A stretch of DNA of 41,775 nucleotides from a virus. Lineage: Duplodnaviria; Heunggongvirae; Uroviricota; Caudoviricetes. The notes beneath the pieces were generated by a model. The model worked only from the letters and a program-made list of their open reading frames with translations, was not told where the DNA came from and did not search any database. The stretch is from the IMG/VR virus record IMGVR_UViG_2675903658_000008, positions 1-41,775 of that record; one strand, 5' to 3'. Of this stretch, positions 1 through 41,775 are shown one piece after another (position 1 is the first letter of the stretch; every line of letters begins with the position of its first letter). A program made the translations under genes and the position numbers.

Positions 1-1284
1 CTACTTCTTCGCCTCTGCAACCACTTTGCTACCCACGCCGCGGTTATTGTATTCCCACATGCGGTTGTAGTTAGTGTCATTCAGATTGCGCTGTACTTCG
101 TCGTTATCATCAACGCTGCCGGTGTTACCCGCAAATGGACGATTAGAGATCACCGCATCAGCCCACGGTTTGGCTGTGTTAAAACCTTCGTTGATGGCGC
201 TATCACGGATCACTACCTGACCGTTGGTATTGGCATCAACATCCAGCGAGCGGCCCAGTTGCGCCACGCCATCACCGGAAGCATTGAAACGGCTGTTTAC
301 GGCGAGGAAACCGTAGTAAATGTTGGACAGCGTAGCCGGTGCAAACACATACGCTTCTTGCTGGGTACGGGAGTTCACCACGCGGAATTCGGTGTTATCG
401 AACACCACTGCGCCGCGACCAGAAACGATATCCACATCCCCTTCAATATAGCTGTTGGTCACCAGCGTACGTGGCTGACGATTCGTTTCCAGACGGTTCT
501 GCACACCGCTGTTGGTGACAAAGAAGGTGTTCTGACGACCGAGAATGTTGACGTTATTGATCTGCACTTTGTCGCCATCAGTACGCAGTGCCACCGCCGG
601 ATGGTTACCCGCATCTACGCTATCGCCCAGCGTGTTTTCGATGGTCAGGTTTTGCAGTTGCAGGCCATTGTTTTGTGACCAGAAGACCGCAGAGCAGAGA
701 ACACCGATACTGTCGCTGCGTTTACTCTGGCAGCTATCGTACATATACCACGCCGGTTTACCTGGCATATATTTGCCGCGCGGGTTGACGTCGTGACGCC
801 AGTCGGCAGGGCTCATGCCACCATCAAGGGAAAGCCCAATCTTCACATCAATCGGTTTTTCACCCGTACCGTACAGAGTAATTCCACCCGGAGCGGCAGG
901 GACATACACCGTTCCCTGATACTCACCAGGCATCACGGCAATATACTGGCGCTTGTTGGTACGCTTGATAATTGCCGCATCTACCGCCGCCTGAATCGTG
1001 GTATGCGTTACACCTTGAGTACCCGCCGGGCCGACAACAAAGTCAGGTTGCGCAGGCAGGGTAATCGGGGAAGGATTCCACGCTGCCGCACCTGGTGTCA
1101 GGGATGCAAAATAGTGTTGAGCATCGAAATTCTGCGCTTCTTTTGCCGACAGAATCGGGCGCGAAGAGGTACCAGGCGCGGTTTGATCAGAAGGACGTTG
1201 ATCGGGCGGTGTTGAGCTACAGGCGGTCAGCGTCACGCCAAAAGCCAATGCCAGCGCCAGACGGGAAACTGAAAATGTGTTCAC
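1..1284 (-). CDS. ybhC: Host lipoprotein YbhC (acyl-CoA thioesterase / pectinesterase-like), flanks lambda attB
   Basis: 427-aa ORF with signal peptide and lipobox (LTAC); recognised as E. coli YbhC; GTG start at 1284. Confidence 0.85.
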   Translation of the reverse strand: MNTFSVSRLALALAFGVTLTACSSTPPDQRPSDQTAPGTSSRPILSAKEAQNFDAQHYFASLTPGAAAWNPSPITLPAQPDFVVGPAGTQGVTHTTIQAAVDAAIIKRTNKRQYIAVMPGEYQGTVYVPAAPGGITLYGTGEKPIDVKIGLSLDGGMSPADWRHDVNPRGKYMPGKPAWYMYDSCQSKRSDSIGVLCSAVFWSQNNGLQLQNLTIENTLGDSVDAGNHPAVALRTDGDKVQINNVNILGRQNTFFVTNSGVQNRLETNRQPRTLVTNSYIEGDVDIVSGRGAVVFDNTEFRVVNSRTQQEAYVFAPATLSNIYYGFLAVNSRFNASGDGVAQLGRSLDVDANTNGQVVIRDSAINEGFNTAKPWADAVISNRPFAGNTGSVDDNDEVQRNLNDTNYNRMWEYNNRGVGSKVVAEAKK

Positions 1285-1330
1285 AGGTTGCTCCGGGCTA
1301 TGAAATAGAAAAATGAATCCGTTGAAGCCT

Positions 1331-1345
1331 GCTTTTTTATACTAA
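1331..1345. repeat. attL core (GCTTTTTTATACTAA), followed by lambda P'-arm-like sequence
   Basis: Exact 15-bp lambda att core; identical copy at 39955..39969; flanking sequence matches recalled lambda attP P' arm. Confidence 0.85.
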
Positions 1346-1418
1346 GTAGGCATTATAAAAAAGCATTGCTTATCAATTTGTTGCAACGAACAGGTCACTA
1401 TCAGTCAAAATAAAATCA

Positions 1419-2489
1419 TTATTTGATTTCAATTTTGTCCCACTCCCTGCCTCTGTCATCACGATACTGTGATGCCATGGTGTCCGACTTATGCCCGAGA
1501 AGATGTTGAGCAAACTTATCGCTTATCTGCTTCTCATAGAGTCTTGCAGACAAACTGCGCAACTCGTGAAAGGTAGGCGGATCCCCTTCGAAGGAAAGAC
1601 CTGATGCTTTTCGTGCGCGCATAAAATACCTTGATACTGTGCCGGATGAAAGCGGTTCACGACGAGTAGATGCAATTATGGTTTCTCCGCCAAGAATCTC
1701 TTTGCATTTATCAAGTGTTTCCTTCATTGATATCCCGAGAGCATCAACATGCAATGTTGTTGGGATGGCAATTTTTACGCCTGTTTTGCTTTGCTCGACA
1801 TAAAGATATCCATCTACGATATCAGACCACTTCATTTCGCATAAATCACCAACACGCTGCCCGGTAACAACAGCCAGTTCCATTGCAAGTCTAAGCCAAC
1901 ATGGTGATGATTCTGCTGCTTGATAAATTTTCAGGTATTCGTCAGCCGTAAGTCTTGATCTCCTTACCTCTGATTTTGCTGCGCGAGTGGCAGCGACCGG
2001 GTTTATTGTTATATGTCCTTCAGCTATTGCCTCTCGGAATGCATCGCTCAGTGTTGATCTGATTAACTTGGCTGACGCCGCCTTGCCCTCGTCTATGTAT
2101 CCATTGAGCATTGCCGCAATTTCTTTTGTGGTGATGTCTTCAAGTGGAGCATCAGGCAGACCCCTCCTTATTGCTTTAATTTTGCTCATGTAATTTATAA
2201 GTGTCTTCTGCTTGATTCCTCTGCTGGCGAGGATTTTTTCGTAGCGATCAAGCCATGAATGTAACGTAACAGAATTATCACTGTTGATTCTCGCTGTCAG
2301 AGGCTTGTGTTTGTGTCCTGAAAATAACTCAATGTTGGCCTGTATTGCTTCAGTGATTGCTATCCTCCTGTCTCGGCCTAATCCAAACTCTTTACCCGTC
2401 CTTGGGTCCCTGTAGCAGTAATATCCATTGTTTCTTATATAAAGGTTAGGGGGTAAATCCCGGCGCTCATGACTTCGCCTTCTTCCCAT
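1419..2489 (-). CDS. int: Tyrosine integrase, lambda Int
   Basis: 356-aa translation matches recalled lambda Int almost throughout; adjacent to attL. Confidence 0.95.
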   Translation of the reverse strand: MGRRRSHERRDLPPNLYIRNNGYYCYRDPRTGKEFGLGRDRRIAITEAIQANIELFSGHKHKPLTARINSDNSVTLHSWLDRYEKILASRGIKQKTLINYMSKIKAIRRGLPDAPLEDITTKEIAAMLNGYIDEGKAASAKLIRSTLSDAFREAIAEGHITINPVAATRAAKSEVRRSRLTADEYLKIYQAAESSPCWLRLAMELAVVTGQRVGDLCEMKWSDIVDGYLYVEQSKTGVKIAIPTTLHVDALGISMKETLDKCKEILGGETIIASTRREPLSSGTVSRYFMRARKASGLSFEGDPPTFHELRSLSARLYEKQISDKFAQHLLGHKSDTMASQYRDDRGREWDKIEIK

Positions 2490-32331: not shown

Positions 32332-33633
32332 ATGGCTACTTGGCAACAAGGAATCAACTCAGGCGGCTTTCTTGCTGGTATCGGTGGGCAAAACTCAAAT
32401 GCGCCAAAGGCAAGTGATGTAAGTGAGGCGTTGGCCTATATTCGCCAGAACAACGAAATGGAGCGCTCAGGTCGCAATAACATCGGCCTTCAGGCGTTGC
32501 AGGGTCTTGGTAGTGTCGCTCAAGCATATCAAGCCGCAAAGCAACAGGAAGCGGATGCTGCATTCCAAAAAGAATATGCGGCAGCCATCCAGTCCGGCGA
32601 TCGACAGCAGGTTCGAAATCTGATGACCAAATATCCTGGTCAATTAGAGAAGATTCAGTCTGGTATGAAGTGGGCAGACGAAGACCAGCGCAATTCCATC
32701 GGTACCTTAGCGGCTGGCGCACGCCTTGCGTCATCGTCTCCAGAAGCAATGCAATCATGGCTGCAAAACAACGCCAAGGAACTGACTCGCGTCGGTGTTG
32801 ACCCTAATAACGTTGCTCAGATGTATCAGCAGAATCCTTCAGGATTTGGTGAGTTTGTTGATCACCTTGGAATGGCTGCTCTTGGTCCGATTGATTACTT
32901 CAATGTTCAGGACAAGATGGCTGGTCGTGAGATTGACCGAGGCAGGCTGGCAGAGACAATCCGCAGCAATCAGGCAGGAGAAGCACTAACAGCTCGAGGT
33001 CAGGACATCCAGATACGTGGACAGAACATCAGCGCACAGAATGCTGCTCTTTCCCGAGAAATACAAAGAGCAGAATTACAAGAAAAGGCTCTGGACAGAC
33101 AGATAGCCAGAGAAAGCAATCAGTTAAAGCTTGAAGAGCTAAAACAGAAACAGGCAGATGTTCGGCAAAAGGCTGACATAGCCCGCGCTGACAGGCAGGC
33201 CGCCGCTCAGGGTGCAGTTGATACGTTCAGCACCGCGCTTGATTCTCTCAACGAGATAGAGCAAAGCCCCGGCCTTTCAAAAGCAGTAGGAATTCGCTCA
33301 GCGTTTCCGACAGTTCCTGGCTCTGATGCGGCTAACTTTGAAGCAAGGCTCGACACCTTTAAAGCTCAAACATTCCTTCCTATGGTGCAGTCCCTGAAGG
33401 GTATGGGCGCTCTTTCAGATGCAGAGGGTAAAAAATTATCCGATGCGGTTGGTGCCCTAAGCCCCAAAATGAGTGAAAAGGCTTTTCGTGACTCTATCGG
33501 AAAGATTAGAAATCAGCTTGAAAGCAAGTTGAGCACTGTTAAAAAACAGTTTGATTATCAGGAGCCGGTGCAGAATATGCCAGGGCAACAATCTACTACT
33601 GGCAGTAACTTTTCTTCGCTATGGGGTGATTAA
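32332..33633 (+). CDS. Ejection protein, gp20-like
   Basis: Position and composition; coiled-coil-rich. Confidence 0.6.
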   Translation: MATWQQGINSGGFLAGIGGQNSNAPKASDVSEALAYIRQNNEMERSGRNNIGLQALQGLGSVAQAYQAAKQQEADAAFQKEYAAAIQSGDRQQVRNLMTKYPGQLEKIQSGMKWADEDQRNSIGTLAAGARLASSSPEAMQSWLQNNAKELTRVGVDPNNVAQMYQQNPSGFGEFVDHLGMAALGPIDYFNVQDKMAGREIDRGRLAETIRSNQAGEALTARGQDIQIRGQNISAQNAALSREIQRAELQEKALDRQIARESNQLKLEELKQKQADVRQKADIARADRQAAAQGAVDTFSTALDSLNEIEQSPGLSKAVGIRSAFPTVPGSDAANFEARLDTFKAQTFLPMVQSLKGMGALSDAEGKKLSDAVGALSPKMSEKAFRDSIGKIRNQLESKLSTVKKQFDYQEPVQNMPGQQSTTGSNFSSLWGD

Positions 33634-35630
33634 TGGCTAAAGCATGGAAAGATGTTATCGCCTCTCCACAGTATCAGGCGTTAGCACCAGAACAAAAAGC
33701 GCAGGCTCAGGAGCAATACTTCAATGAAGTCGTTGCCCCGCAAGCCGGAGAAAATGCAGAGCAGGCTAAGCAAGCTTTCTATGCTGCCTATCCATTGCCA
33801 TCTGTGCAGCCAGTGGAGACACAACAACCAGTATCACAGCAACAACCACAGCAAAGTGGATTTATGTCGGATCTTGGTGAAGCCGTGAAAGAAACTGGTC
33901 GCGGACTGGTGCAGGCTGGCGTGAACGTGGCAAACATACCTGCATCAGTTGCCGATGCTGTAACAAGCGCGGCGGCATGGGCTGGCGGTAAACTCGGCAT
34001 TGGCGATGGTACATATCAACCAGCGCCACGAGTAACAACGCAGGGGTTAGAGCAGGACTTTGGCCTTCAGCAAGGCGCGCTCACTCCACAAACGACAGAG
34101 GGAAGGGTATTTGCTGAAGCATTGCCTTACCTCACTCCTGCTGGCGTTGAGAGAGCGGCAGCACAGGCACCAACACTTGCTGGTCGAATTGCTCAGGGGG
34201 CAACTCGCCTTCTAGCAGAAAACGCAGTTGGATCACTTGCTGCAAATAGTGCGAAAGATGATGCGGAAGCACTCGCCACCGATTTAGGCGTTGGCGTTCT
34301 GGCTGGCGGTGCTATTAACGCTGCCGGACGTGGATTAGGTGCTGCTTATCGTGGCGTTCGTGGTGCTATTGCGCCAGAAGCGCAGCAGGCTATCAGATTT
34401 GCAGAGCGTGAAGGAGTTCCTCTGCACACCACAGACCTGTTACAGCCTACTTCCCGCGTCGGAAAAATGGCGCAAACGACAGCAGAAAATATCCCCCTGG
34501 CTGGCACAAGCGGAATGAGAGCAACGCAACAGGAAGCGAGAAGCCAGTTGGTTCAGAGATTTGCTGATAAATTCGGTGAGTATGATCCAGCGGTTGTTAT
34601 TGACAGCCTTAAAGCGAAAACATCAGGAATTCGTCGTGCCGCCGGTAATCGACTGGAGCAGGTTCAGAATGCTATGGCGGGAATAAACATTCAGCCTGCA
34701 AGAGCAATTCAGCAGATTGATACAGAAATATCTAACCTGCAGAAGCTTGGTAAGGTTGCTGATAACGAGACTATTTCAAAACTTCAGTCCTATCGTGATG
34801 AGCTTGTTCGCAATGCTGGTCCTGATGGTCCGGTAAATCTGGATTTGAAGCAATTAAGCGATCTGCGCAGCCAGTTCAGAATGGATGTGAAGGGTGAGCG
34901 ACCAGTGTTACCAAACCGTTCCGATGCTGCCATTCAGCGCGTTTACAAGGCAATGACCGACGATATCAATGGTGCCATTGGTCAGAATCTTGGCAACGAT
35001 ACTCTCCGTAAATATCAGCAGGCCAATGCCGTCTACGCTGACGAAGCGGCGAAACTAAAGAATACCATGCTGAAGAATGTTCTCATGAAAGGCGACCTGA
35101 CGCCGGAAGTTGTCAACAACATGCTATTCAGCAAGAACAAATCGGAAATTAAGACGCTGTATAACTCAGTTGGTCGTGTTGGCAGGGCGCAAATGCGCAA
35201 TGGCATCATTGGAAAGGCGATGGAGAAATCAGGTGGTTCCCCTGATCAGTTCCTTCGACAGCTTAACATCCTGCAAAACCAGACTGGCATCACATTTAAG
35301 GGGCAGGACGCTGCTTATCTGAAAGGATTGAAAAACTACCTGCAATCCACGCAGCAGGCTGCAAAAGCGGCAGTAACAACACCAACAGGGCAGCAAACCA
35401 TCCCGTTCATTATCGGGTATGGGACAGCAATGAACCCGGCGACAACTGGCGCAGCGGTAAGCTACGGACTTCTTACTCGCGCCTATGAGAGCGAACCATT
35501 CAGAAATGCAATGCTCCGAATGGCAAACACACCACGCGGATCGACAGCGTTTGAGAAAGCCATGCAGCAAGCGCAAAAAGCGATTAATGCACTGACGCAG
35601 GGTGCTAAGTCTGATTCGTTGTCAGAATAG
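33633..35630 (+). CDS. Ejection protein, gp16-like
   Basis: 665 aa in gene-16 position. Confidence 0.6.
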   Translation: MAKAWKDVIASPQYQALAPEQKAQAQEQYFNEVVAPQAGENAEQAKQAFYAAYPLPSVQPVETQQPVSQQQPQQSGFMSDLGEAVKETGRGLVQAGVNVANIPASVADAVTSAAAWAGGKLGIGDGTYQPAPRVTTQGLEQDFGLQQGALTPQTTEGRVFAEALPYLTPAGVERAAAQAPTLAGRIAQGATRLLAENAVGSLAANSAKDDAEALATDLGVGVLAGGAINAAGRGLGAAYRGVRGAIAPEAQQAIRFAEREGVPLHTTDLLQPTSRVGKMAQTTAENIPLAGTSGMRATQQEARSQLVQRFADKFGEYDPAVVIDSLKAKTSGIRRAAGNRLEQVQNAMAGINIQPARAIQQIDTEISNLQKLGKVADNETISKLQSYRDELVRNAGPDGPVNLDLKQLSDLRSQFRMDVKGERPVLPNRSDAAIQRVYKAMTDDINGAIGQNLGNDTLRKYQQANAVYADEAAKLKNTMLKNVLMKGDLTPEVVNNMLFSKNKSEIKTLYNSVGRVGRAQMRNGIIGKAMEKSGGSPDQFLRQLNILQNQTGITFKGQDAAYLKGLKNYLQSTQQAAKAAVTTPTGQQTIPFIIGYGTAMNPATTGAAVSYGLLTRAYESEPFRNAMLRMANTPRGSTAFEKAMQQAQKAINALTQGAKSDSLSE

Positions 35631-35720
35631 CCTTTCAAACACCAGGAACGTGCAAAAACCAAATATGTAGAACGCGAGGTTTATCGTATTCCTCTGCATA
35701 GGCGATACCTTTGCTGATTG

Positions 35721-36206
35721 TTATCTGATGTTACTGCTACTGTTGCATGTTACCGCGTTTCCAAATCCTGAATTGCAGTTTGTATATGTGTCAACGCGTG
35801 TTGGGTAAGGTTGAGTTATAACAGGCTGGCGCGCTTTTTGCTCGATCGCTTGCATTGTGTTTACAGCCTGATAATTCAATAAAGCCTGCTGGAATGCTTG
35901 GCTTTGTGCTATTTGTTGGGCTTGTTCTTGGCTTTGTAATTGAACATAAAGATTCTGAAGCTCAAGTCTTGCCTGTGCGTCACTTATCTTGCCTTCATCG
36001 ACACCTTGCCCGAGCATCTTTGCAGCAAGGACATACAGCTTAGGTGTTGGTGCTGATGCCATGCGTGAGTCGTTCTTCACACTGGCATCAAGGCAATTAG
36101 CCATATCGCTAAGCTTTTGATAGCGTTGTTCGCAACTTGCTTGATAGTCACTTACTTTTGCGCACCCAGCCAGCAGAAGCGGGATAATTAACAGTGATTT
36201 TTTCAT
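35721..36206 (-). CDS. Lipoprotein of unknown function (candidate superinfection-exclusion moron)
   Basis: MKKSLLIIPLLLAGC signal peptide with lipobox; AAGGAGAG RBS; Gln-rich coiled coil; P22 sieA position. Confidence 0.65.
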   Translation of the reverse strand: MKKSLLIIPLLLAGCAKVSDYQASCEQRYQKLSDMANCLDASVKNDSRMASAPTPKLYVLAAKMLGQGVDEGKISDAQARLELQNLYVQLQSQEQAQQIAQSQAFQQALLNYQAVNTMQAIEQKARQPVITQPYPTRVDTYTNCNSGFGNAVTCNSSSNIR

Positions 36207-36240
36207 ATAATTAACTCTCCTTAGTTTTGCGCAGGATACC

Positions 36241-36606
36241 ATGAAAAAAGTTAACATTGGAAACGTACCAAAGATGCTCGTTCCGCTCTTTGAGAGCGGT
36301 ACAATTGTGTTTTGTAGAGACTTTCCAGAATGGCAACGCCTGCATCAAAAACTTGGCGTTGACGTGCATGACTCGGACGCCAACGGAGCGTCTCATACAA
36401 TGAGTAGCGAGAATGGTGTTTTGCATGTGATAGGCGTGTTCAATGGCAAACTATCTACTATTGCCCATGAGTGCGCTCACATGGCATTCGATATCTGCTC
36501 AAGGGTAGGTGTTGATGTTGAACCAGGAAGAGCCAACGAGACTTACTGCTACTTAATGAGCAGGCTTGTTGAGTTCTGCGAGCGACATATCAAAAAGCCG
36601 GAGTGA
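36241..36606 (+). CDS. Small HExxH metallopeptidase-like protein (ImmA/IrrE-like motif)
   Basis: TIAHECAHMAF resembles the T-x-A-H-E-x-x-H motif; Glu about 20 aa downstream; divergent from lipoprotein gene. Confidence 0.5.
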   Translation: MKKVNIGNVPKMLVPLFESGTIVFCRDFPEWQRLHQKLGVDVHDSDANGASHTMSSENGVLHVIGVFNGKLSTIAHECAHMAFDICSRVGVDVEPGRANETYCYLMSRLVEFCERHIKKPE

Positions 36607-36619
36607 CCCGGCTTGATTA

Positions 36620-36799
36620 TTACTTTTTGCTGTCTGGAGTTCGCTTATCCAATACCCAGCCATGACCTGGCTTTGTTGTTGGTGGAAGCCTTTCGTTGTC
36701 CTTGACGGTTGCAAAATTGTCTTTCTTACCGCCGCGTGGGCCAACTTCTTGGTATATTCCGCCGTTTTTTCCTGTGTTTTCACCTGGTTTTTTCGCCAT
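36620..36799 (-). CDS. Small Gly/Lys-rich hypothetical protein (59 aa)
   Basis: ATG with GAGGT RBS; TTGACT promoter-like hexamer upstream; highly charged. Confidence 0.45.
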   Translation of the reverse strand: MAKKPGENTGKNGGIYQEVGPRGGKKDNFATVKDNERLPPTTKPGHGWVLDKRTPDSKK

Positions 36800-36880
36800 G
36801 ATATACCTCAACATACACCCGTTATTGGGCGATTAAATATTGATCTCATTTTATAAGTAGTCAATATGGCCCAGGTAAAT

Positions 36881-36915
36881 GCAAAAATTAACCCACCTTC
36901 AGGTGGGTTTTTTGT
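36881..36915. terminator. Bidirectional rho-independent terminator at mnt stop
   Basis: AACCCACC-TTCA-GGTGGGTT hairpin flanked by T-runs on both strands. Confidence 0.55.
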
Positions 36916-37150
36916 ACAAATCCTTCAGCGTATCAAACACCATCTTCTTAACAAGTTCAGACTGCTCATCAGCGATGCGTTCCGCATCGTCTCGATAGCC
37001 TGAAATTTTGGATGGCTTTGATACGGCATCAGTCACTATCTGAACTAATTCTGAATTAAGAGAGCGGCCATTGGATTTGGCTCGCTGTTTTAGTTTTTCC
37101 TTTAATTCGTAAGGTAGCCGCAGATTAAATTGCGGGTCATCTCTTCCCAT
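36899..37150 (-). CDS. mnt: Mnt repressor (ribbon-helix-helix)
   Basis: 83 aa; near-identical to recalled P22 Mnt (RDDP.FN.R.P.E..EKLK.RA..NGRS.NSEL.QIV.DA.SKPS..GYR.DAER.ADEQSELVKKMVFDTLKDLYKK). Confidence 0.85.
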   Translation of the reverse strand: MGRDDPQFNLRLPYELKEKLKQRAKSNGRSLNSELVQIVTDAVSKPSKISGYRDDAERIADEQSELVKKMVFDTLKDLYKKPT

Positions 37151-37213
37151 TCTTGATGCCTCGCTTTTGTGAGTGGATCGGTATCTTATTATCTGCTGGT
37201 TGCATCCTCAATA

Positions 37214-37228
37214 AGACCACAGTGGTCT
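37214..37228. promoter_or_regulatory. Perfect 15-bp palindrome, candidate Mnt operator
   Basis: AGACCAC-A-GTGGTCT in the divergent region between mnt and tailspike. Confidence 0.5.
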
Positions 37229-37296
37229 CTTTGTTTGATTAATAATGCATCACTGTGGCAATGCTGCGGCGATTCCTTGTATCTGGAGCAAATTAA

Positions 37297-39288
37297 ATGA
37301 CAGACATTACAGCCAATGTTGTAGTGAGTATGCCTTCGCAACTCTTCACTATGGCGCGTTCTTTTAAAGCCGTAGCCAATGGCAAAATTTATATCGGTAA
37401 AATTGACACTGACCCGGTAAATCCTGAAAACCAGATTCAGGTTTATATAGAGAACGAAGACGGTTCTCACGTTCCTGTTTCGCAACCAATCATCATTAAT
37501 GCGGCTGGTTACCCGGTATATAACGGACAGATTGCCAAGTTCGTAACTGTGCAAGGCCATTCGATGGCTGTATATGATGCGTATGGTGCGCAGCAGTTCT
37601 ATTTTCCTAATGTGCTGAAGTATGACCCGGATCAGTTAAGGCAGGAGTTAGCAAGTTCAGGTGATGATCTTGGAGATGCATTAATAGCAGTAAAACAACC
37701 ATTCACCTTGTCAATAAGAAGGACGCAGCATCAAAAAAATGCCGAGCACATTAGTGTTAGTGATTTTGGTGCAAAAGGAGACGGCATAACAGATGATACT
37801 GTAGCAATTCAAAATGCTATTAATGCAGTACCAGAAGGGGCTATACTTGGATTTTATGGTGGTGAATTTGTTTTTGATAAGGTTGAATTGCTTAAGCCAA
37901 TAACATTGGTTGGTGATGCAACGTTAATTCACAACGGATTTAGAATAAAATCTAGCAGAATCCGATCACTTTTATCTGGTGTTCAGAAATGCAAGGATTA
38001 CTCCGAGTCTTCAAGAGCATTTTATTGCTATGCAAATGAAGACCAAAGAGATTATGACGATATTCAGATTTTGTTTAATAGATTTGAAGGTTTCTTTTAC
38101 TCTACGGCATTTGTTGCAAAAAACTATTATTTGGAGAATGACCCTAATTCAAGAACTGTCAAAAATACAAAAGTAATAGGGTGTACATCAGTTGCTCCTG
38201 ATTCTGTAAATGCCGGTCATTTTCAACATATAGGCGTTACAAATGCTGAAACATCGCATAACTCAACTTATGGCGGACAAAATGCAACATCATACAACTT
38301 CATTAACCAGAATGGATTTGTAAGGATTATAGGAAATTATGACCATAACAATAGCTATGGTTCATGTGAGCTTGAGAACTCAATGGTGAGTAACTCAGTC
38401 ATATCATGTAATACGTTTTCGTCATATTTATGGGTGGATGATACAAGTAATGTTACTATTTCTGGAAATACCGTTTCATCAAGGATCAAAGTAACATCGC
38501 AAACTGACGATGTTCATAATATAACCATATCAGCAAATACCACAAAACGGATTACTATAGAGCAATTTGGAGAATCTCCGACAGGTCTGGTATATGGTGC
38601 ATTAATTTCCTGTAACACTATTACTGGCGACAGTGATGGAAGTTCAGACATTTTATGTACGTCACTTGTTACAGGTGAAATTTCATCAAATTATTGTCAT
38701 GGAACAGAAAAAAATATATCAATTGTCCGCCTGGATTCTTCTGATATAACTGTTAGAAACAATAAAGGAAACAAAGGATTACTTACAATAAGTAACGATG
38801 GTGGAAGGATAATTGAATATGGAAATGATTCTATGGTTCTGTCTGGAAGCATAGATAGCAGACATATACATAATTTATTACAGCCAGACACCTCGTATTT
38901 AGATCTACCGGGGAAATATCTGCACGGGACTAAATATACTGGCAGTATCCCCCCCGGTTCCACAGGAACTGTATCACTTCAAATACCATCAGGGGCAAGC
39001 CTTGTTTTCAGGGGTGTTTCTATATGGGTTCTAATTAGAGATGTTAGCAATAACAATATATCGTCATTCAGAATTGATGGTTCATATAGAGTTGTTGGTG
39101 GAAGTGTTGGTCTTAGTTTTGCTGATGCTTATTCGAAACTTGGGGTGGATGCAAACTCTATAACAGTGTCAAACAATAACAGCACTTCTGACAATATCAG
39201 CATAGCAATTAAAAACACAGATTCATCAAAAACCCTTCAGGTTACTGTTATGCCGGAGGTTTCAAGCAGGTTAGGTATTGAGGAATAG
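37297..39288 (+). CDS. Tailspike: P22-type head-binding domain fused to beta-helix receptor-binding/depolymerase domain
   Basis: First ~110 aa match recalled P22/HK620 tailspike N-terminus; [13 protein letters not shown] pectate-lyase-like motif; AT-rich Asn/Ser-rich body. Confidence 0.85.
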
Positions 39289-40059: not shown

Positions 40060-40536
40060 TTAACTAAACATCGCAGTAATCGAGGCACTCGCCAGAGAGT
40101 GAAAATGAACGTTAAACCCGACCATCGCGCCGCTGGCACCTTCATCGACATCAATACGTTCTACATCCAGCGCGTGAACGGTAAAAATGTAGCGATGGGT
40201 TTCGCCTTTCGGCGGCGCTGCGCCATCGTACCCGGTTTTACCAAAGTCGGTACGCGTCTGCAAAACGCCGTCTGGCATAGCTACCAGACCAGAGCCAAAC
40301 CCTTGCGGTAATACGCGGGTATCAGCGGGTAAATTAACAACTACCCAGTGCCACCAGCCGGAGCCGGTTGGCGCATCCGGGTCATAGCAGGTGACAACAA
40401 AACTTTTCGTTCCCACAGGAACATCATCCCACGCCAGATGCGGTGAAATATTATCGCCATCGTAACCCATGCCGTTAAAGACATGACGATGCGGCAGCTT
40501 ATCGCCATCGCGCAGATCGTTACTGATGAGTTTCAT
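40060..40536 (-). CDS. ybhB: Host PEBP-family protein YbhB
   Basis: 158-aa translation recognised as E. coli YbhB. Confidence 0.85.
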   Translation of the reverse strand: MKLISNDLRDGDKLPHRHVFNGMGYDGDNISPHLAWDDVPVGTKSFVVTCYDPDAPTGSGWWHWVVVNLPADTRVLPQGFGSGLVAMPDGVLQTRTDFGKTGYDGAAPPKGETHRYIFTVHALDVERIDVDEGASGAMVGFNVHFHSLASASITAMFS

Positions 40537-40644
40537 TAGAATGCCTCCGGGAAACCTCGGCCTTCAGACCGGGGAGGAAAGGAGGCGGTTTTCCGACTAA
40601 CTGTACTTTGCATAATCACATTTTCCTCTTTAGTATGTGAACAC

Positions 40645-41775
40645 ATGAAACGCGCATATAAATACCGGTTTTACCCGACAACTGAGCAGGCTGAGCTTTT
40701 AGCTCAGACGTTTGGCTGTGTGCGCTTCGTCTACAATTCCATCCTTCGTTGGCGTACCGATGCGTACTACGAGCGAAAAGAAAAGATCGGTTATCTACAG
40801 GCCAACGCTCGCCTTACGGCGCTCAAAAAAGAGCCTGAATACATATGGCTGAATGATGTTTCCTGCGTTCCCCTCCAGCAGTCGTTGCGCCACCAACAAG
40901 CCGCCTTTGCTAACTTCTTTGCCGGACGAGCTGCATATCCGGCTTTCAAAAGCAAACGGCACAAACAGGTGGCTGAGTTCACTGCCAGCGCGTTTAAACA
41001 CCGTGACGGCGAGTTGTATATAGCAAAGAGCAAGTCGCCGCTGGATGTTCGCTGGAGTCGAGAATTACCATCTGCGCCGTCAACCGTTACCATTTCCAGA
41101 GATAGCGCTGGCAGGTACTTTGTTTCCTGCCTGTGTGAGTTTGAACCTGTATCAATGCCTGTTACCGCTAAAACGGTCGGCATTGATGTGGGCTTAAAAG
41201 ATTTATTCGTCACCGATACCGGATTCAAAACCGACAATCCCCGCCACACCGCTAAATATGCGAAGCGATTAACGCTGCTACAGCGACGTTTAAGCAGGAA
41301 GCAAAAAGGCTCAAGAAACCGTATTAAAGCCCGCTTAAAGGTCGCCCGACTCCACGCGAAAATCGCCGATTGCCGGATGGACAATCTGCACAAGTTGTCC
41401 CGCAAACTGATTAACGAAAACCAAGTTGTTTGCGTCGAATCCCTCAAGGTGAAAAACATGATCCGCAACCCGAAGCTGTCTAAAGCAATAGCTGACGCAG
41501 GCTGGAGCGAACTTGTTCGCCAGCTCCAGTACAAAGGCAAATGGGCCGGGCGGTCAGTGGTCGCCATTGACCAGTATTTACCGTCCTCAAAATGCTGTAG
41601 TTGCTGCGGTTTCACCATGCAAAAAATGCCTCTTAATGTTCGTAAATGGCACTGCCCTGAATGCGGCGCAGACCATGATCGCGACATTAACGCGGCACGT
41701 AATATTAAAGCTGCCGGGCTGGCAGTGTTAGCCCACGGAGAGCCTGTAAACCCTGAATCGCAGCACGCGGCTTAG
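40645..41775 (+). CDS. tnpB: IS200/IS605-family TnpB (OrfB) RuvC-like nuclease, no adjacent tnpA
   Basis: 376 aa; N-terminal YRFYPT, central RuvC-like region, C-terminal CxxC..CxxC zinc finger; ORF ends at last base of window. Confidence 0.85.
   Translation: MKRAYKYRFYPTTEQAELLAQTFGCVRFVYNSILRWRTDAYYERKEKIGYLQANARLTALKKEPEYIWLNDVSCVPLQQSLRHQQAAFANFFAGRAAYPAFKSKRHKQVAEFTASAFKHRDGELYIAKSKSPLDVRWSRELPSAPSTVTISRDSAGRYFVSCLCEFEPVSMPVTAKTVGIDVGLKDLFVTDTGFKTDNPRHTAKYAKRLTLLQRRLSRKQKGSRNRIKARLKVARLHAKIADCRMDNLHKLSRKLINENQVVCVESLKVKNMIRNPKLSKAIADAGWSELVRQLQYKGKWAGRSVVAIDQYLPSSKCCSCCGFTMQKMPLNVRKWHCPECGADHDRDINAARNIKAAGLAVLAHGEPVNPESQHAA

What the first reader, a model, noticed from the sequence alone, without database searches (positions are those of the whole stretch)
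35721..36206. Lipoprotein moron in the P22 sieA position
Minus-strand gene with a textbook signal peptide and lipobox and a strong RBS, between the last ejection-protein gene and the mnt locus. In P22 this slot holds superinfection-exclusion functions; an exclusion or conversion role here is inference.
Basis: partly seen in the sequence, partly recalled or inferred. Interest (0 to 1): 0.5.

Follow-up and report, generated by a model that had tools for sequence, protein, structure and literature searches.

The report
Prophage lipoprotein gene replacing sieA
A P22-like prophage in an E. coli chromosome carries a conserved gene for an uncharacterised outer-membrane lipoprotein exactly where phage P22 keeps its superinfection-exclusion gene sieA, under the same promoter, so it is a good but untested candidate for a new phage-exclusion or host-conversion protein.

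Summary
Window 35721-36206 (minus strand) encodes a 161-aa protein with a canonical lipoprotein signal peptide (MKK/SLLIIPLLLAG/C15, Ala at +2) and an AAGGAG ribosome-binding site. The gene is under strong purifying selection (median dN/dS 0.05).

It sits in the P22 sieA slot to the nucleotide. The 110 nt upstream are 109/110 identical to P22, and the annotated P_sieA 31-mer matches 31/31. Homology stops just after the Shine-Dalgarno. HK620 hkcB uses the same junction, and Sf6 has the slot empty.

In all 85 related loci that could be scored, the gene lies tail-to-tail with the last ejection-protein gene. At least three gp16 types are involved, and sieA is never present.

Published RNA-seq of a 97.5%-identical homologue (LF82 prophage Gally) shows prophage transcription independent of late genes, rising in macrophages.

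The protein belongs to phrog_6067 (function unknown) and has no Pfam, NCBIfam, PADLOC or PDB relative. The model is a four-helix bundle, a long helix, and a C-terminal disulfide hairpin.

"Lipoprotein moron in the sieA position" is supported. Exclusion remains inference (about 0.4). A host-fitness role is the main rival.

The parts
35721..36206 (-). Lipoprotein CDS: 161-aa precursor, 147-aa mature protein, stop codon included. Member of phrog_6067.
   Evidence: phrog_6067, E 9e-110, full length; RefSeq annotates the same CDS in a 99.9%-identical prophage; median dN/dS 0.05
36162..36206 (-). Signal peptide (residues 1-14, MKKSLLIIPLLLAG) plus the lipid-attachment Cys15. The lipobox is LAGC and Ala follows at +2.
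   Evidence: Cys15 is invariant in alignment A1. No Asp at +2 in any of 194 family members that have a lipobox.
35832..36161 (-). Mature residues 16-125: a helical bundle followed by a long Gln-rich helix. Conserved Cys25 and Cys38 are inferred to form a disulfide.
   Evidence: AlphaFold2 model built on alignment A2, pLDDT above 90 for residues 20-120. Invariant columns.
35739..35783 (-). C-terminal beta-hairpin (residues 142-156) holding Cys144 and Cys154. It follows a Pro-rich linker (residues 126-141). This is the variable, exchangeable end of the protein.
   Evidence: strands 142-147 and 151-156, low pLDDT; two C-terminal types; C-x(5-12)-C near the C-terminus in 82/93 close and 98/142 distant members
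36217..36222 (-). Shine-Dalgarno AAGGAG, 10 nt before the ATG. It is the last element shared with P22 sieA and HK620 hkcB.
36241..36271 (-). Sequence identical (31/31) to the element annotated as promoter P_sieA in P22. It lies 35-65 nt upstream of the ATG and overlaps the 5' end of the divergent hkcC-like ORF.
   Evidence: P22 annotation; exact match; PMC10883804: 85 bp upstream of sieA, including the putative PsieA, is enough for exclusion from a single chromosomal copy
36213..36900 (.). Block about 98% identical to the P22 and HK620 immI-left region (hkcC, orf59a, start of mnt). Its left edge is the mosaic junction just upstream of the lipoprotein start codon.
35631..35720 (.). 90-nt spacer between the convergent stop codons of the gp16-type gene and the lipoprotein gene. 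No intrinsic terminator was detected. The first 46 nt or so after the gp16 stop are shared with Sf6.
   Evidence: fold z-score -0.4
33633..35630 (+). Context: last ejection-protein gene (P22 gp16 / Sf6 gp13 type, 665 aa).
36241..36606 (+). Context: divergent hkcC-like ORF (121 aa, phrog_1365, contains HECAH).
36595..36614 (.). Context: bidirectional terminator-like hairpin (HK620 tORF59A, P22 t-mnt). It should insulate the lipoprotein gene from leftward mnt/orf59a transcripts.
36620..36799 (-). Context: orf59a homologue (59 aa, phrog_3202).
36899..37150 (-). Context: mnt repressor gene. No arc or ant gene follows it.
37297..39288 (+). Context: tailspike gene with a P22-type N-terminal head-binding domain.

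Best explanation
This is an accessory (moron-type) gene of a P22-like, Sf6-related prophage integrated at the lambda attachment site of an E. coli chromosome. It occupies the sieA cassette slot. I infer it is transcribed leftward, against the late operon, from the P_sieA promoter that it shares with P22.

The following steps follow from established lipoprotein biology (inferred, not tested here):
- The precursor is exported by Sec.
- It is lipidated at Cys15 and cleaved by signal peptidase II.
- Because residue +2 is Ala rather than Asp, the Lol system moves it to the inner leaflet of the outer membrane.
- Two conserved cysteine pairs (25-38 and 144-154) are oxidised in the periplasm.

The mature protein is a conserved four-helix bundle, a long Gln-rich helix, a Pro-rich linker, and a small exchangeable disulfide-stapled hairpin.

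My preferred mechanism is a hypothesis. From the periplasmic face of the outer membrane, the protein binds an envelope component needed for DNA delivery by short-tailed P22-like phages. That component could be the outer-membrane secondary receptor (OmpA/OmpC for Sf6-type phages) or the incoming ejection-protein conduit (gp7/gp20/gp16). Binding would exclude superinfecting phages. In that case the protein is a functional alternative to the inner-membrane protein SieA, and the variable C-terminal hairpin is the specificity element.

Confidence by part: about 0.85 that it is a prophage-expressed outer-membrane lipoprotein accessory gene, and about 0.4 that its job is superinfection exclusion.
For: Gene and lipoprotein features.

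Exact sieA slot and shared regulatory DNA:
- P22 sieA, HK620 hkcB and this gene all begin immediately after the same AAGGAG.
- Upstream DNA is 109/110 identical to P22, with the P_sieA element 31/31.
- In P22, 85 bp of that upstream DNA drives enough sieA for exclusion from a single copy (PMC10883804).
- sieA always lies between genes 16 and 9 in P22-like prophages, and only 22 of 66 such phages have it.

Conserved placement:
- In 85 of 88 related loci, a large convergent last-ejection-gene ORF lies directly downstream. The gap is under 100 bp in 81 of them, which leaves no room for sieA.
- These loci span at least 3 major and several minor gp16 types, and include Proteus, Providencia and Tatumella prophages.
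- No P22-type sieA or hkcB was found in any of these loci.

Lysogenic-side orientation:
- 40 loci have the gene about 95 nt downstream of mnt on the same strand.
- 17 loci have the P_sieA/hkcC context.

Dispensable for the virion: Sf6 has about 95%-identical ejection genes and an empty slot.

Prophage transcription of the 97.5%-identical homologue GALLYPH_13 in E. coli LF82:
- LB: 70 normalised counts against a prophage median of 15.6.
- log2 fpkm: about 6.1 in LB, about 8 in DMEM, 10.3 in macrophages at 1 h.
- The adjacent gp16-type gene stays at 3.6-4.2.

All three alternative occupants of the slot are envelope proteins. SieA is a multi-pass inner-membrane protein (abstract). HkcB has a hydrophobic N-terminus. 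This gene encodes a lipoprotein.

The C-terminus comes in two exchangeable forms on a near-identical N-terminal domain, as expected for a target-contacting element.

Distant relatives ride as cargo in P4-like satellites and next to TIR/STAND genes.

Sf6-type phages need OmpA or OmpC after LPS binding (abstracts listed: PMC9400499, bioRxiv 10.1101/509141).
Against: - There is no functional test of exclusion for any member of the family.
- Slot occupancy alone does not imply exclusion. Most P22-like phages lack sieA, and the function of HK620 hkcB is unknown.
- Some distant relatives sit in ordinary chromosomal neighbourhoods (uvrC-pgsA, hom-thrC). That points to a general envelope role that a phage may simply have borrowed.
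- Macrophage induction in LF82 is shared by the five rightmost Gally genes and fits a host-adaptation role equally well.
- The LF82 data come from a prophage whose upstream region differs from the window's. They show that the gene is expressed from prophages, not that P_sieA drives it here.
- P_sieA itself is called 'putative', and my consensus scan did not flag it.
- No terminator follows the gene.
Confidence: 0.4

Rival explanations
1. Host-fitness (lysogenic conversion) lipoprotein. The protein changes an envelope property of the lysogen, such as stress tolerance, survival in macrophages or serum, or outer-membrane integrity. This would resemble lambda Bor or plasmid TraT/Iss. Phage exclusion would not be its selected function.
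For: The homologue in the adherent-invasive strain LF82 rises from log2 fpkm about 6.1 (LB) to about 8 (DMEM) and 10.3 (macrophages, 1 h), while late genes are repressed. Distant family members lie in housekeeping chromosomal contexts, so the fold probably has a cellular role. The gene is carried by 186 of 5426 complete E. coli genomes, always on the chromosome. Purifying selection is strong.
Against: There is no similarity to Bor, TraT or any virulence family in Pfam or NCBIfam. Within Enterobacterales it was found only in P22-like prophages and only at the sieA slot, which ties it to phage biology. Macrophage induction is regional (five neighbouring genes), not specific to this gene. No phenotype has been reported.
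Confidence: 0.3
2. Receptor-masking lipoprotein aimed at unrelated phages or colicins, working like Cor or Llp. It would bind a specific outer-membrane protein from the periplasmic side and inactivate it as a receptor for siphophages or myophages, rather than acting on P22-like phages.
For: It has the same general design as Cor and Llp: a small phage-encoded outer-membrane lipoprotein with disulfides. This comparison rests on background knowledge of those proteins; Cor and FhuA are cited in the reference list read. The variable C-terminal hairpin could track different outer-membrane targets. It occurs with many different ejection-protein types, so its target need not be the P22-type conduit.
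Against: The only Cor signal is a signal-peptide-only match (phrog_1119, residues 1-31, E 0.03). There is no fold match. The slot otherwise holds a function specific for P22-like phages (abstract).
Confidence: 0.15
3. Lytic-cycle helper. The protein is made during infection or induction and protects progeny or the infected cell, for example by stopping new virions from ejecting into cell debris, or by modulating envelope breakdown at lysis.
For: P22 sieA, under the same upstream DNA, is reported to be upregulated during prophage induction. T5 Llp has such a dual role (background knowledge, not tested here).
Against: The gene lies outside the lysis cassette and on the strand opposite the late genes. 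It is absent from fully viable Sf6, P22 and HK620. In LF82 it is expressed when late genes are silent.
Confidence: 0.08
4. Chance ORF or decaying remnant with no function.
For: No known domain and no experimental data. Databases annotate it only as a hypothetical protein.
Against: Median dN/dS is 0.05 over 55 alleles. There are 93 clusters at 90% identity in Enterobacterales, and 251 representatives at 50% identity match at E up to 0.001. The lipobox and four cysteines are conserved. A homologue is transcribed.
Confidence: 0.02

Closest known systems
Phage P22 SieA (superinfection exclusion A)
   Same: Same genomic slot to the nucleotide, the same upstream DNA including the annotated P_sieA element and the Shine-Dalgarno, and the same leftward orientation convergent with gene 16. 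Both are envelope proteins of similar size (164 vs 161 aa). The two were never found together in 88 loci.
   Different: SieA is a multi-pass inner-membrane protein with a cytoplasmic FxRYPxEAxxFNK motif. This protein has a cleavable lipoprotein signal, no transmembrane segment, and no detectable similarity to SieA. If it excludes phages, it must act at the outer membrane or in the periplasm, not at the inner membrane.
Phage HK620 HkcB (function unknown)
   Same: A third alternative occupant of the same slot. It begins after the same AAGGAG and has the same hkcC/orf59a neighbours.
   Different: 109 aa with a hydrophobic N-terminus rather than a lipobox. No sequence similarity.
Cor (phi80, N15, HK022) and Llp (T5): outer-membrane lipoproteins that inactivate the FhuA receptor
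   Same: The same kind of molecule: a small phage-encoded lipoprotein predicted to go to the outer membrane. Members of this group expressed from prophages block superinfection from the periplasmic side. The resemblance is drawn from background knowledge plus the references listed.
   Different: No homology. The only PHROG Cor hit covers the signal peptide (E 0.03). This protein is larger and has a helical bundle plus a C-terminal hairpin. Its target is unknown. It is carried by podophages that use LPS plus OmpA/OmpC, not FhuA.
Ltp of Streptococcus thermophilus phage TP-J34
   Same: A prophage lipoprotein that blocks DNA injection by binding a component of the incoming phage's delivery machinery, the tape measure protein (reference listed). 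This is the closest precedent for a lipoprotein that targets the ejection conduit.
   Different: Gram-positive host and a siphophage target. No sequence relationship was detected by any search here.
Lambda Bor and plasmid TraT/Iss lipoproteins
   Same: Lipoproteins encoded by mobile elements and expressed from the resident element, which change host surface properties. The Perceval Bor lipoprotein in the same LF82 dataset is induced in DMEM.
   Different: No Pfam match to the Bor or TraT families at E up to 1. Different size and predicted fold.

Membership tests
Bacterial lipoproteins (Lgt/LspA substrates) | N-terminal signal peptide with a positively charged n-region, a hydrophobic h-region, and a lipobox [LVI][ASTVI][GAS]C | tested here: met
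   MKK / SLLIIPLLLAG / LAGC with Cys15. Cys15 is invariant in A1. A lipobox is present in 84/93 close and 110/142 distant relatives.
Bacterial lipoproteins (Lgt/LspA substrates) | Actual diacylglyceryl modification and globomycin-sensitive cleavage | not testable with these tools
   Needs palmitate labelling, globomycin treatment or mass spectrometry.
Outer-membrane (Lol-sorted) lipoproteins of Enterobacterales | No Asp at position +2 (the inner-membrane retention signal) | tested here: met
   +2 is Ala here. Among family members with a lipobox, +2 is A, T, S, V, L, G, Q, F or M and never D. Localisation itself was not tested.
Moron (autonomously expressed prophage accessory gene) | Present in some and absent from other closely related phages, between conserved flanks | tested here: met
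   Sf6 has an empty slot next to about 95%-identical ejection genes. P22 has sieA and HK620 has hkcB at the same junction.
Moron (autonomously expressed prophage accessory gene) | Own promoter | tested here: inconclusive
   The P22 element annotated as P_sieA matches 31/31 at window 36241-36271. In P22, 85 bp upstream is enough for function. However, the promoter is called 'putative', was not picked up by the consensus scan, and was not mapped in this prophage.
Moron (autonomously expressed prophage accessory gene) | Own terminator | tested here: not met
   No intrinsic terminator in 35631-35720. The fold is no more stable than shuffled sequence.
Moron (autonomously expressed prophage accessory gene) | Transcribed in the lysogen independently of lytic genes | tested here: inconclusive
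   Met for the 97.5%-identical homologue GALLYPH_13 in LF82. It reaches 4.5 times the prophage median in LB and up to log2 fpkm 10.3 in macrophages, with adjacent late genes at 3.6-4.2. That prophage has a different upstream region, and there are no data for this prophage.
SieA family (types A-C) | Multi-pass inner-membrane protein with the conserved FxRYPxEAxxFNK motif and sequence similarity to SieA | tested here: not met
   No BLASTP alignment to P22 SieA at E up to 100. No transmembrane segment in the mature protein. Motif absent (sequence). Family definition.
Cor / Llp receptor-blocking lipoproteins | Sequence or profile homology to Cor (phrog_1119) or Llp | tested here: not met
   phrog_1119 matches residues 1-31 only (the signal peptide), E 0.03. 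No structural match in the viral or PDB libraries.
phrog_6067 (phage protein family of unknown function) | Full-length profile match | tested here: met
   E 9e-110, residues 1-161 against profile positions 1-161 of 161.
Known anti-phage defence systems (PADLOC-DB v2) | Match to any defence-protein profile | tested here: not met
   No hit at E up to 1.
Superinfection-exclusion proteins (functional class) | Expression lowers productive infection by a superinfecting phage at or before DNA entry | not testable with these tools
   Needs plating, potassium-efflux and adsorption assays.

The most novel reading that the evidence does not exclude
The protein founds a new class of superinfection-exclusion factor for short-tailed phages. 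It would be an outer-membrane-anchored periplasmic lipoprotein that substitutes for the inner-membrane protein SieA. Its exchangeable C-terminal disulfide hairpin often ends in an aromatic residue, like a beta-barrel C-terminal signal. That hairpin could dock onto an outer-membrane barrel (OmpA/OmpC) or onto the nascent gp7/gp20/gp16 conduit and stop DNA delivery at the outer-membrane stage. The wider family of about 250 sequence clusters, found in satellites, near defence genes and in chromosomes, would then be an unrecognised envelope-level defence family.
Probability: 0.33. Interest if true: 0.62.

Novelty: new variant of a known kind. Interest (0 to 1): 0.42.

Why it matters
[quoted passage not shown] How its targets, the ejection proteins, cross the envelope is still being worked out.

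This gene is a second, unrelated envelope protein swapped into exactly the same expression slot, but anchored to the other membrane. If it excludes phages, it would give an independent handle on the outer-membrane and periplasmic stage of podophage DNA delivery.

It would also assign a function to a gene present in about 3.4% of complete E. coli genomes and in P22-like prophages of at least ten enterobacterial genera.

If it is instead a host-fitness factor, its strong induction inside macrophages in a Crohn's-disease-associated strain makes it a candidate conversion gene. The authors of that study concluded that the prophage had no morons, because the gene fell just under their cut-off of five times the prophage median expression (70.2 against 78.1).

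Either outcome can be tested with a single-gene clone.

Tried and rejected
1. Known-family searches found nothing informative. I tried Pfam, NCBIfam and PADLOC on the protein, Pfam on 25 family members, and PDB sequence searches with both a single sequence and a profile. The weak GspK, DUF2802 and WTAP hits lie in the Gln-rich helix, and I reject them as compositional.

3. A virion or structural role is rejected. The phrog_2952 'minor tail protein' hit (E 0.009) covers only the coiled region, and the gene is absent from Sf6, P22 and HK620.

4. The longer 178-aa reading (ATG at 36257) is rejected. It has no ribosome-binding site, it would bury the signal peptide, and it is not shared by homologues.

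5. A spanin or lysis role is rejected. The gene is outside the lysis cassette and has no partner gene.

6. A functional pair with the divergent HExxH protein hkcC is rejected as a general rule. Only 17 of 88 loci have that neighbour.

7. A strict link to one ejection-protein type is rejected. At least 3 major gp16 types accompany near-identical lipoprotein alleles.

8. Locus search with the most divergent alignment failed because it had no conserved stretch. A profile search with distant members returned only unnamed metagenome proteins, so the distant branch could not be placed taxonomically.

9. Literature searches found no paper that names or tests this protein. I searched for the accession, the locus tags, the phage names and 'lipoprotein' with P22-like or Lederbergvirus.

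10. SieA types B and C were not searched by sequence. Their absence is inferred from the under-100-bp spacing to the ejection gene and from the ORF census between the lipoprotein gene and the tailspike gene. One Providencia locus (L006) has an unassigned 153-aa protein with a hydrophobic segment in that interval.
Full report
**What is in the sequence**

Window 35721-36206 (minus strand) is an ORF of 161 codons starting at ATG 36206. An in-frame ATG at 36257 would give 178 aa. I reject that start because it lacks a ribosome-binding site, it would bury the signal peptide, and it is not shared by homologues. RefSeq annotates the 486-nt CDS in a 99.9%-identical prophage.

AAGGAG lies at 36217-36222, 10 nt before the ATG.

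The N-terminus is a canonical lipoprotein signal: MKK, then SLLIIPLLLAG, then Cys15, with lipobox LAGC and Ala at +2. The mature 147-aa protein (16.2 kDa, pI 7.8) has no transmembrane segment. It has four further cysteines at positions 25, 38, 144 and 154.

**It is a real, selected gene**

- A word-indexed search found 93 clusters (90% identity), all from Enterobacterales: Escherichia, Citrobacter, Serratia, Klebsiella aerogenes, Cronobacter, Yersinia, Pectobacterium, Morganella, Providencia and Tatumella. None has a Pfam domain.
- In a 30-sequence alignment, Cys15, Cys25, Cys38, Cys154 and much of residues 16-90 are invariant.
- Among 55 distinct alleles from 83 loci, median pairwise dN/dS is 0.05.
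- The gene is in 186 of 5426 complete E. coli genomes, always chromosomal.
- It matches phrog_6067 (function unknown) over its full length, E 9e-110.

**Where the window comes from**

The window is E. coli chromosome. A pectinesterase-family gene (1-1284) and a lambda-type integrase (1419-2489) lie on the left. A PEBP-family gene (40060-40536) and an IS605-type tnpB (40645-41775) lie on the right. From background knowledge, this is the ybhC/ybhB lambda attachment region.

Between these flanks lies a P22-like prophage. Its needle and ejection genes are about 95% identical to Shigella phage Sf6.

**The slot**

The local gene order is as follows:
- gp16-type ejection gene (33633-35630, +)
- lipoprotein gene (-)
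- hkcC-like ORF (36241-36606, +)
- orf59a (36620-36799, -)
- mnt (36899-37150, -)
- tailspike (37297-39288, +)

Megablast against phage genomes matches P22 and HK620 at about 98%, but only from window 36213 rightwards. The lipoprotein gene itself has no near-identical DNA in P22.

The P22 record places sieA at exactly the corresponding position and annotates a promoter, P_sieA, 31-61 nt upstream of it. HK620 has hkcB there.

Aligned in the direction of the gene, the three phages are identical through AAGGAG and diverge immediately afterwards. The upstream 110 nt are 109/110 identical between the window and P22. The annotated P_sieA 31-mer occurs 31/31 at window 36241-36271.

Leavitt et al. (PMC10883804) showed that sieA with 85 bp of this upstream DNA excludes P22 from a single chromosomal copy. 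They also report that sieA always lies between genes 16 and 9, and that only 22 of 66 P22-like phages have it.

Sf6 has nothing between its gp16 homologue and its tailspike. The first 46 nt or so after the gp16 stop are still shared with the window.

So "the P22 sieA position" is correct to the nucleotide. The slot behaves as a cassette site with at least three unrelated occupants.

**Conservation of placement**

I collected 88 loci carrying the gene: 80 IMG/VR contigs, 5 species-representative genomes, and phage and E. coli records.

- In 85 loci, a large convergent ORF (the last ejection gene) lies directly downstream. The gap is under 100 bp in 81 of them.
- At 70% identity these ORFs fall into three major types (39, 24 and 14 loci) plus several singletons.
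- No locus holds a P22-type sieA or hkcB.

The upstream context varies:
- mnt about 95 nt away on the same strand: 40 loci
- the hkcC/P_sieA arrangement seen here: 17 loci
- a divergent PEGA-like lipoprotein gene, as in phage Gally: 11 loci
- an ant-containing arrangement: 9 loci

The gene is always on the strand opposite the late operon. Terminator-like hairpins at 36595-36614 and 36890-36909 match the annotated P22 and HK620 terminators. They should insulate the gene from mnt/orf59a transcripts. No terminator follows the gene itself.

**Expression**

Phage Gally, a prophage of the adherent-invasive E. coli LF82, encodes a 97.5%-identical protein, GALLYPH_13 / LF82_138. The supplementary RNA-seq table of PMC9928086 gives:

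| Condition | GALLYPH_13 |
|---|---|
| LB overnight, normalised counts | 78 and 62 (mean 70.2) |
| LB, log2 fpkm | 6.3 / 6.0 |
| DMEM, log2 fpkm | 7.9-8.2 |
| Macrophages 1 h, log2 fpkm | 10.3 |
| Macrophages 6 h, log2 fpkm | 8.5-8.7 |

The prophage median in LB is 15.6 counts, and the authors' moron cut-off is 78.1. The adjacent gp16-type gene stays at log2 fpkm 3.6-4.2 in every condition.

The authors state that Gally has no morons. The gene missed their threshold narrowly. They do note that the five rightmost Gally genes are induced 6- to 40-fold in macrophages while late genes are repressed.

This shows that the gene is transcribed from a prophage independently of lytic genes. The caveat is that Gally's upstream region differs from the window's.

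**The protein**

With a diverse alignment, AlphaFold2 gives mean pLDDT 80.7, and above 90 for residues 20-120. The predicted elements are:
- helices 18-28, 32-45 and 53-70
- a long helix 76-125, which is Gln-rich in its second half
- a Pro-rich linker of low confidence
- a beta-hairpin at 142-156 holding Cys144 and Cys154

Pfam, NCBIfam, PADLOC and PDB sequence searches are empty or compositional. BLASTP finds no similarity to SieA or HkcB. The only Cor signal is confined to the signal peptide.

**A wider family**

An exhaustive profile search finds 251 representatives (50% identity clusters) at E up to 0.001. They mostly match residues 1-100. Among the 142 distant sequences I examined:
- 110 have a lipobox, and none has Asp at +2
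- 108 keep the Q-x2-C…C core
- 98 keep a C-x(5-12)-C near the C-terminus

Close homologues carry one of two C-terminal forms, …CNSSSNIR or …CQSY, on nearly identical N-terminal domains.

Contexts of distant members are mixed:
- ordinary chromosomal neighbourhoods (uvrC-pgsA, hom-thrC)
- cargo of integrase-AlpA-primase (P4-like) elements, next to a T5orf172 gene
- next to TIR and STAND genes
- next to a giant ParB-domain protein

All are unnamed metagenome sequences.

**Interpretation**

The following are firm:
- It is an accessory gene of P22-like prophages.
- It has a lipoprotein precursor.
- It occupies the sieA slot with the sieA upstream DNA.
- It is dispensable for virion production.
- A homologue is transcribed in lysogens.

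The following are inferred from established lipoprotein biology: Sec export, lipidation, Lol sorting to the outer membrane because +2 is not Asp, and periplasmic disulfides.

The function is a hypothesis. I favour superinfection exclusion at the outer-membrane or periplasmic stage of podophage DNA delivery (about 0.4), for these reasons:
- The slot and its promoter serve exclusion in P22.
- The gene and sieA are mutually exclusive.
- Every known occupant of the slot is an envelope protein.
- Sf6-type phages depend on OmpA/OmpC and on a trans-periplasmic conduit.
- The exchangeable C-terminal hairpin looks like a specificity element.

The main rival (about 0.3) is a host-fitness conversion factor. 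It is supported by macrophage induction and by chromosomal relatives. A Cor/Llp-like block of unrelated phages (about 0.15) and a lytic-cycle helper role (about 0.08) remain possible.

**Verdict**

The gene is annotated only as a hypothetical protein, and I found no paper that discusses it. It is a new, unrelated variant of a known kind of element: a prophage-borne envelope lipoprotein in an exclusion slot. Interest is moderate. It would not surprise a P22 specialist, who knows this region is mosaic, but it is a clean and cheap candidate for a second, mechanistically distinct block to podophage DNA entry.

Noticed in passing
window 36241-36606 (+): The divergent hkcC-like ORF (121 aa, phrog_1365, function unknown) contains an HExxH-type motif (IAHECAHMAF), which suggests a small metalloprotease-like protein. 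Its first 31 nt overlap the P_sieA element on the other strand. The ORF is 99% conserved in P22 but is not annotated in the P22-pbi record.
   Followed up: partly
L002 3447-3866 (phage Gally GALLYPH_14); also 11 of 88 loci: In Gally-type prophages the gene upstream of the lipoprotein gene is a different, divergent gene. It encodes a second lipoprotein (MKRIIGVVAGAILLSGC…) with a weak PEGA-domain match. In LF82 it is even more highly transcribed, at log2 fpkm 9.8-11.0 in DMEM and macrophages.
   Followed up: partly
PMC9928086, S1 Table: The published statement that prophage Gally carries no moron depends on the threshold. GALLYPH_13 averages 70.2 normalised counts against a cut-off of 78.1 in LB. 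It and GALLYPH_14 are far above background in DMEM and in macrophages.
   Followed up: yes
window 1-2489 and 40060-41775: The window is E. coli chromosome with the prophage at the lambda attachment region. A pectinesterase-family gene and a lambda-type integrase (Arm-DNA-bind_1 plus Phage_integrase) lie on the left. A PEBP-family gene lies on the right, followed by an IS605-family OrfB/TnpB gene that runs to the window end.
   Followed up: partly
window 36899-37296: mnt is an orphan here. Only 146 nt separate it from the tailspike start, and there is no arc or ant gene. Other lipoprotein-bearing loci do keep an ant homologue.
   Followed up: no
window 35724-35831 (codons 126-161) across 55 alleles: The last 36 codons accumulate more synonymous differences (summed 10350) than the 110 codons of the helical domain (8960), yet few non-synonymous ones (928). 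This suggests recombination between diverged alleles at the 3' end under strong constraint on the peptide. It matches the two C-terminal types seen in more distant homologues.
   Followed up: partly
L100-L102 (metagenome contigs), L091-L092: Distant family members ride as cargo in integrase-AlpA-primase (P4-like satellite) elements next to a T5orf172/MUG113 gene. In another case one lies directly upstream of a TIR-domain gene and a STAND/WD40 gene. These are neighbourhoods typical of defence islands.
   Followed up: no
L009 4297-4611 and 8 other IMG/VR loci: Nine loci have a 104-aa ORF with a cleavable-looking signal peptide (MKRIAILLILFFSTIVCAKQ…) between the lipoprotein gene and an ant homologue. 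It has no Pfam match. It is another envelope-directed accessory gene in the same region.
   Followed up: no
L006 6519-6980 (Providencia alcalifaciens prophage): A 153-aa ORF with one hydrophobic segment lies just upstream of the lipoprotein homologue. I did not test whether it relates to the type C SieA proteins described for Providencia, Morganella and Proteus (family description).
   Followed up: no
window 37297-39288 vs L001 6798-9503: The nearest E. coli relative (99.9% identical over the lipoprotein region) has a 901-aa tailspike, against 663 aa here. They share only the N-terminal head-binding domain, at 93% identity. The receptor-binding module has been swapped next to an otherwise identical accessory block.
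   Followed up: no
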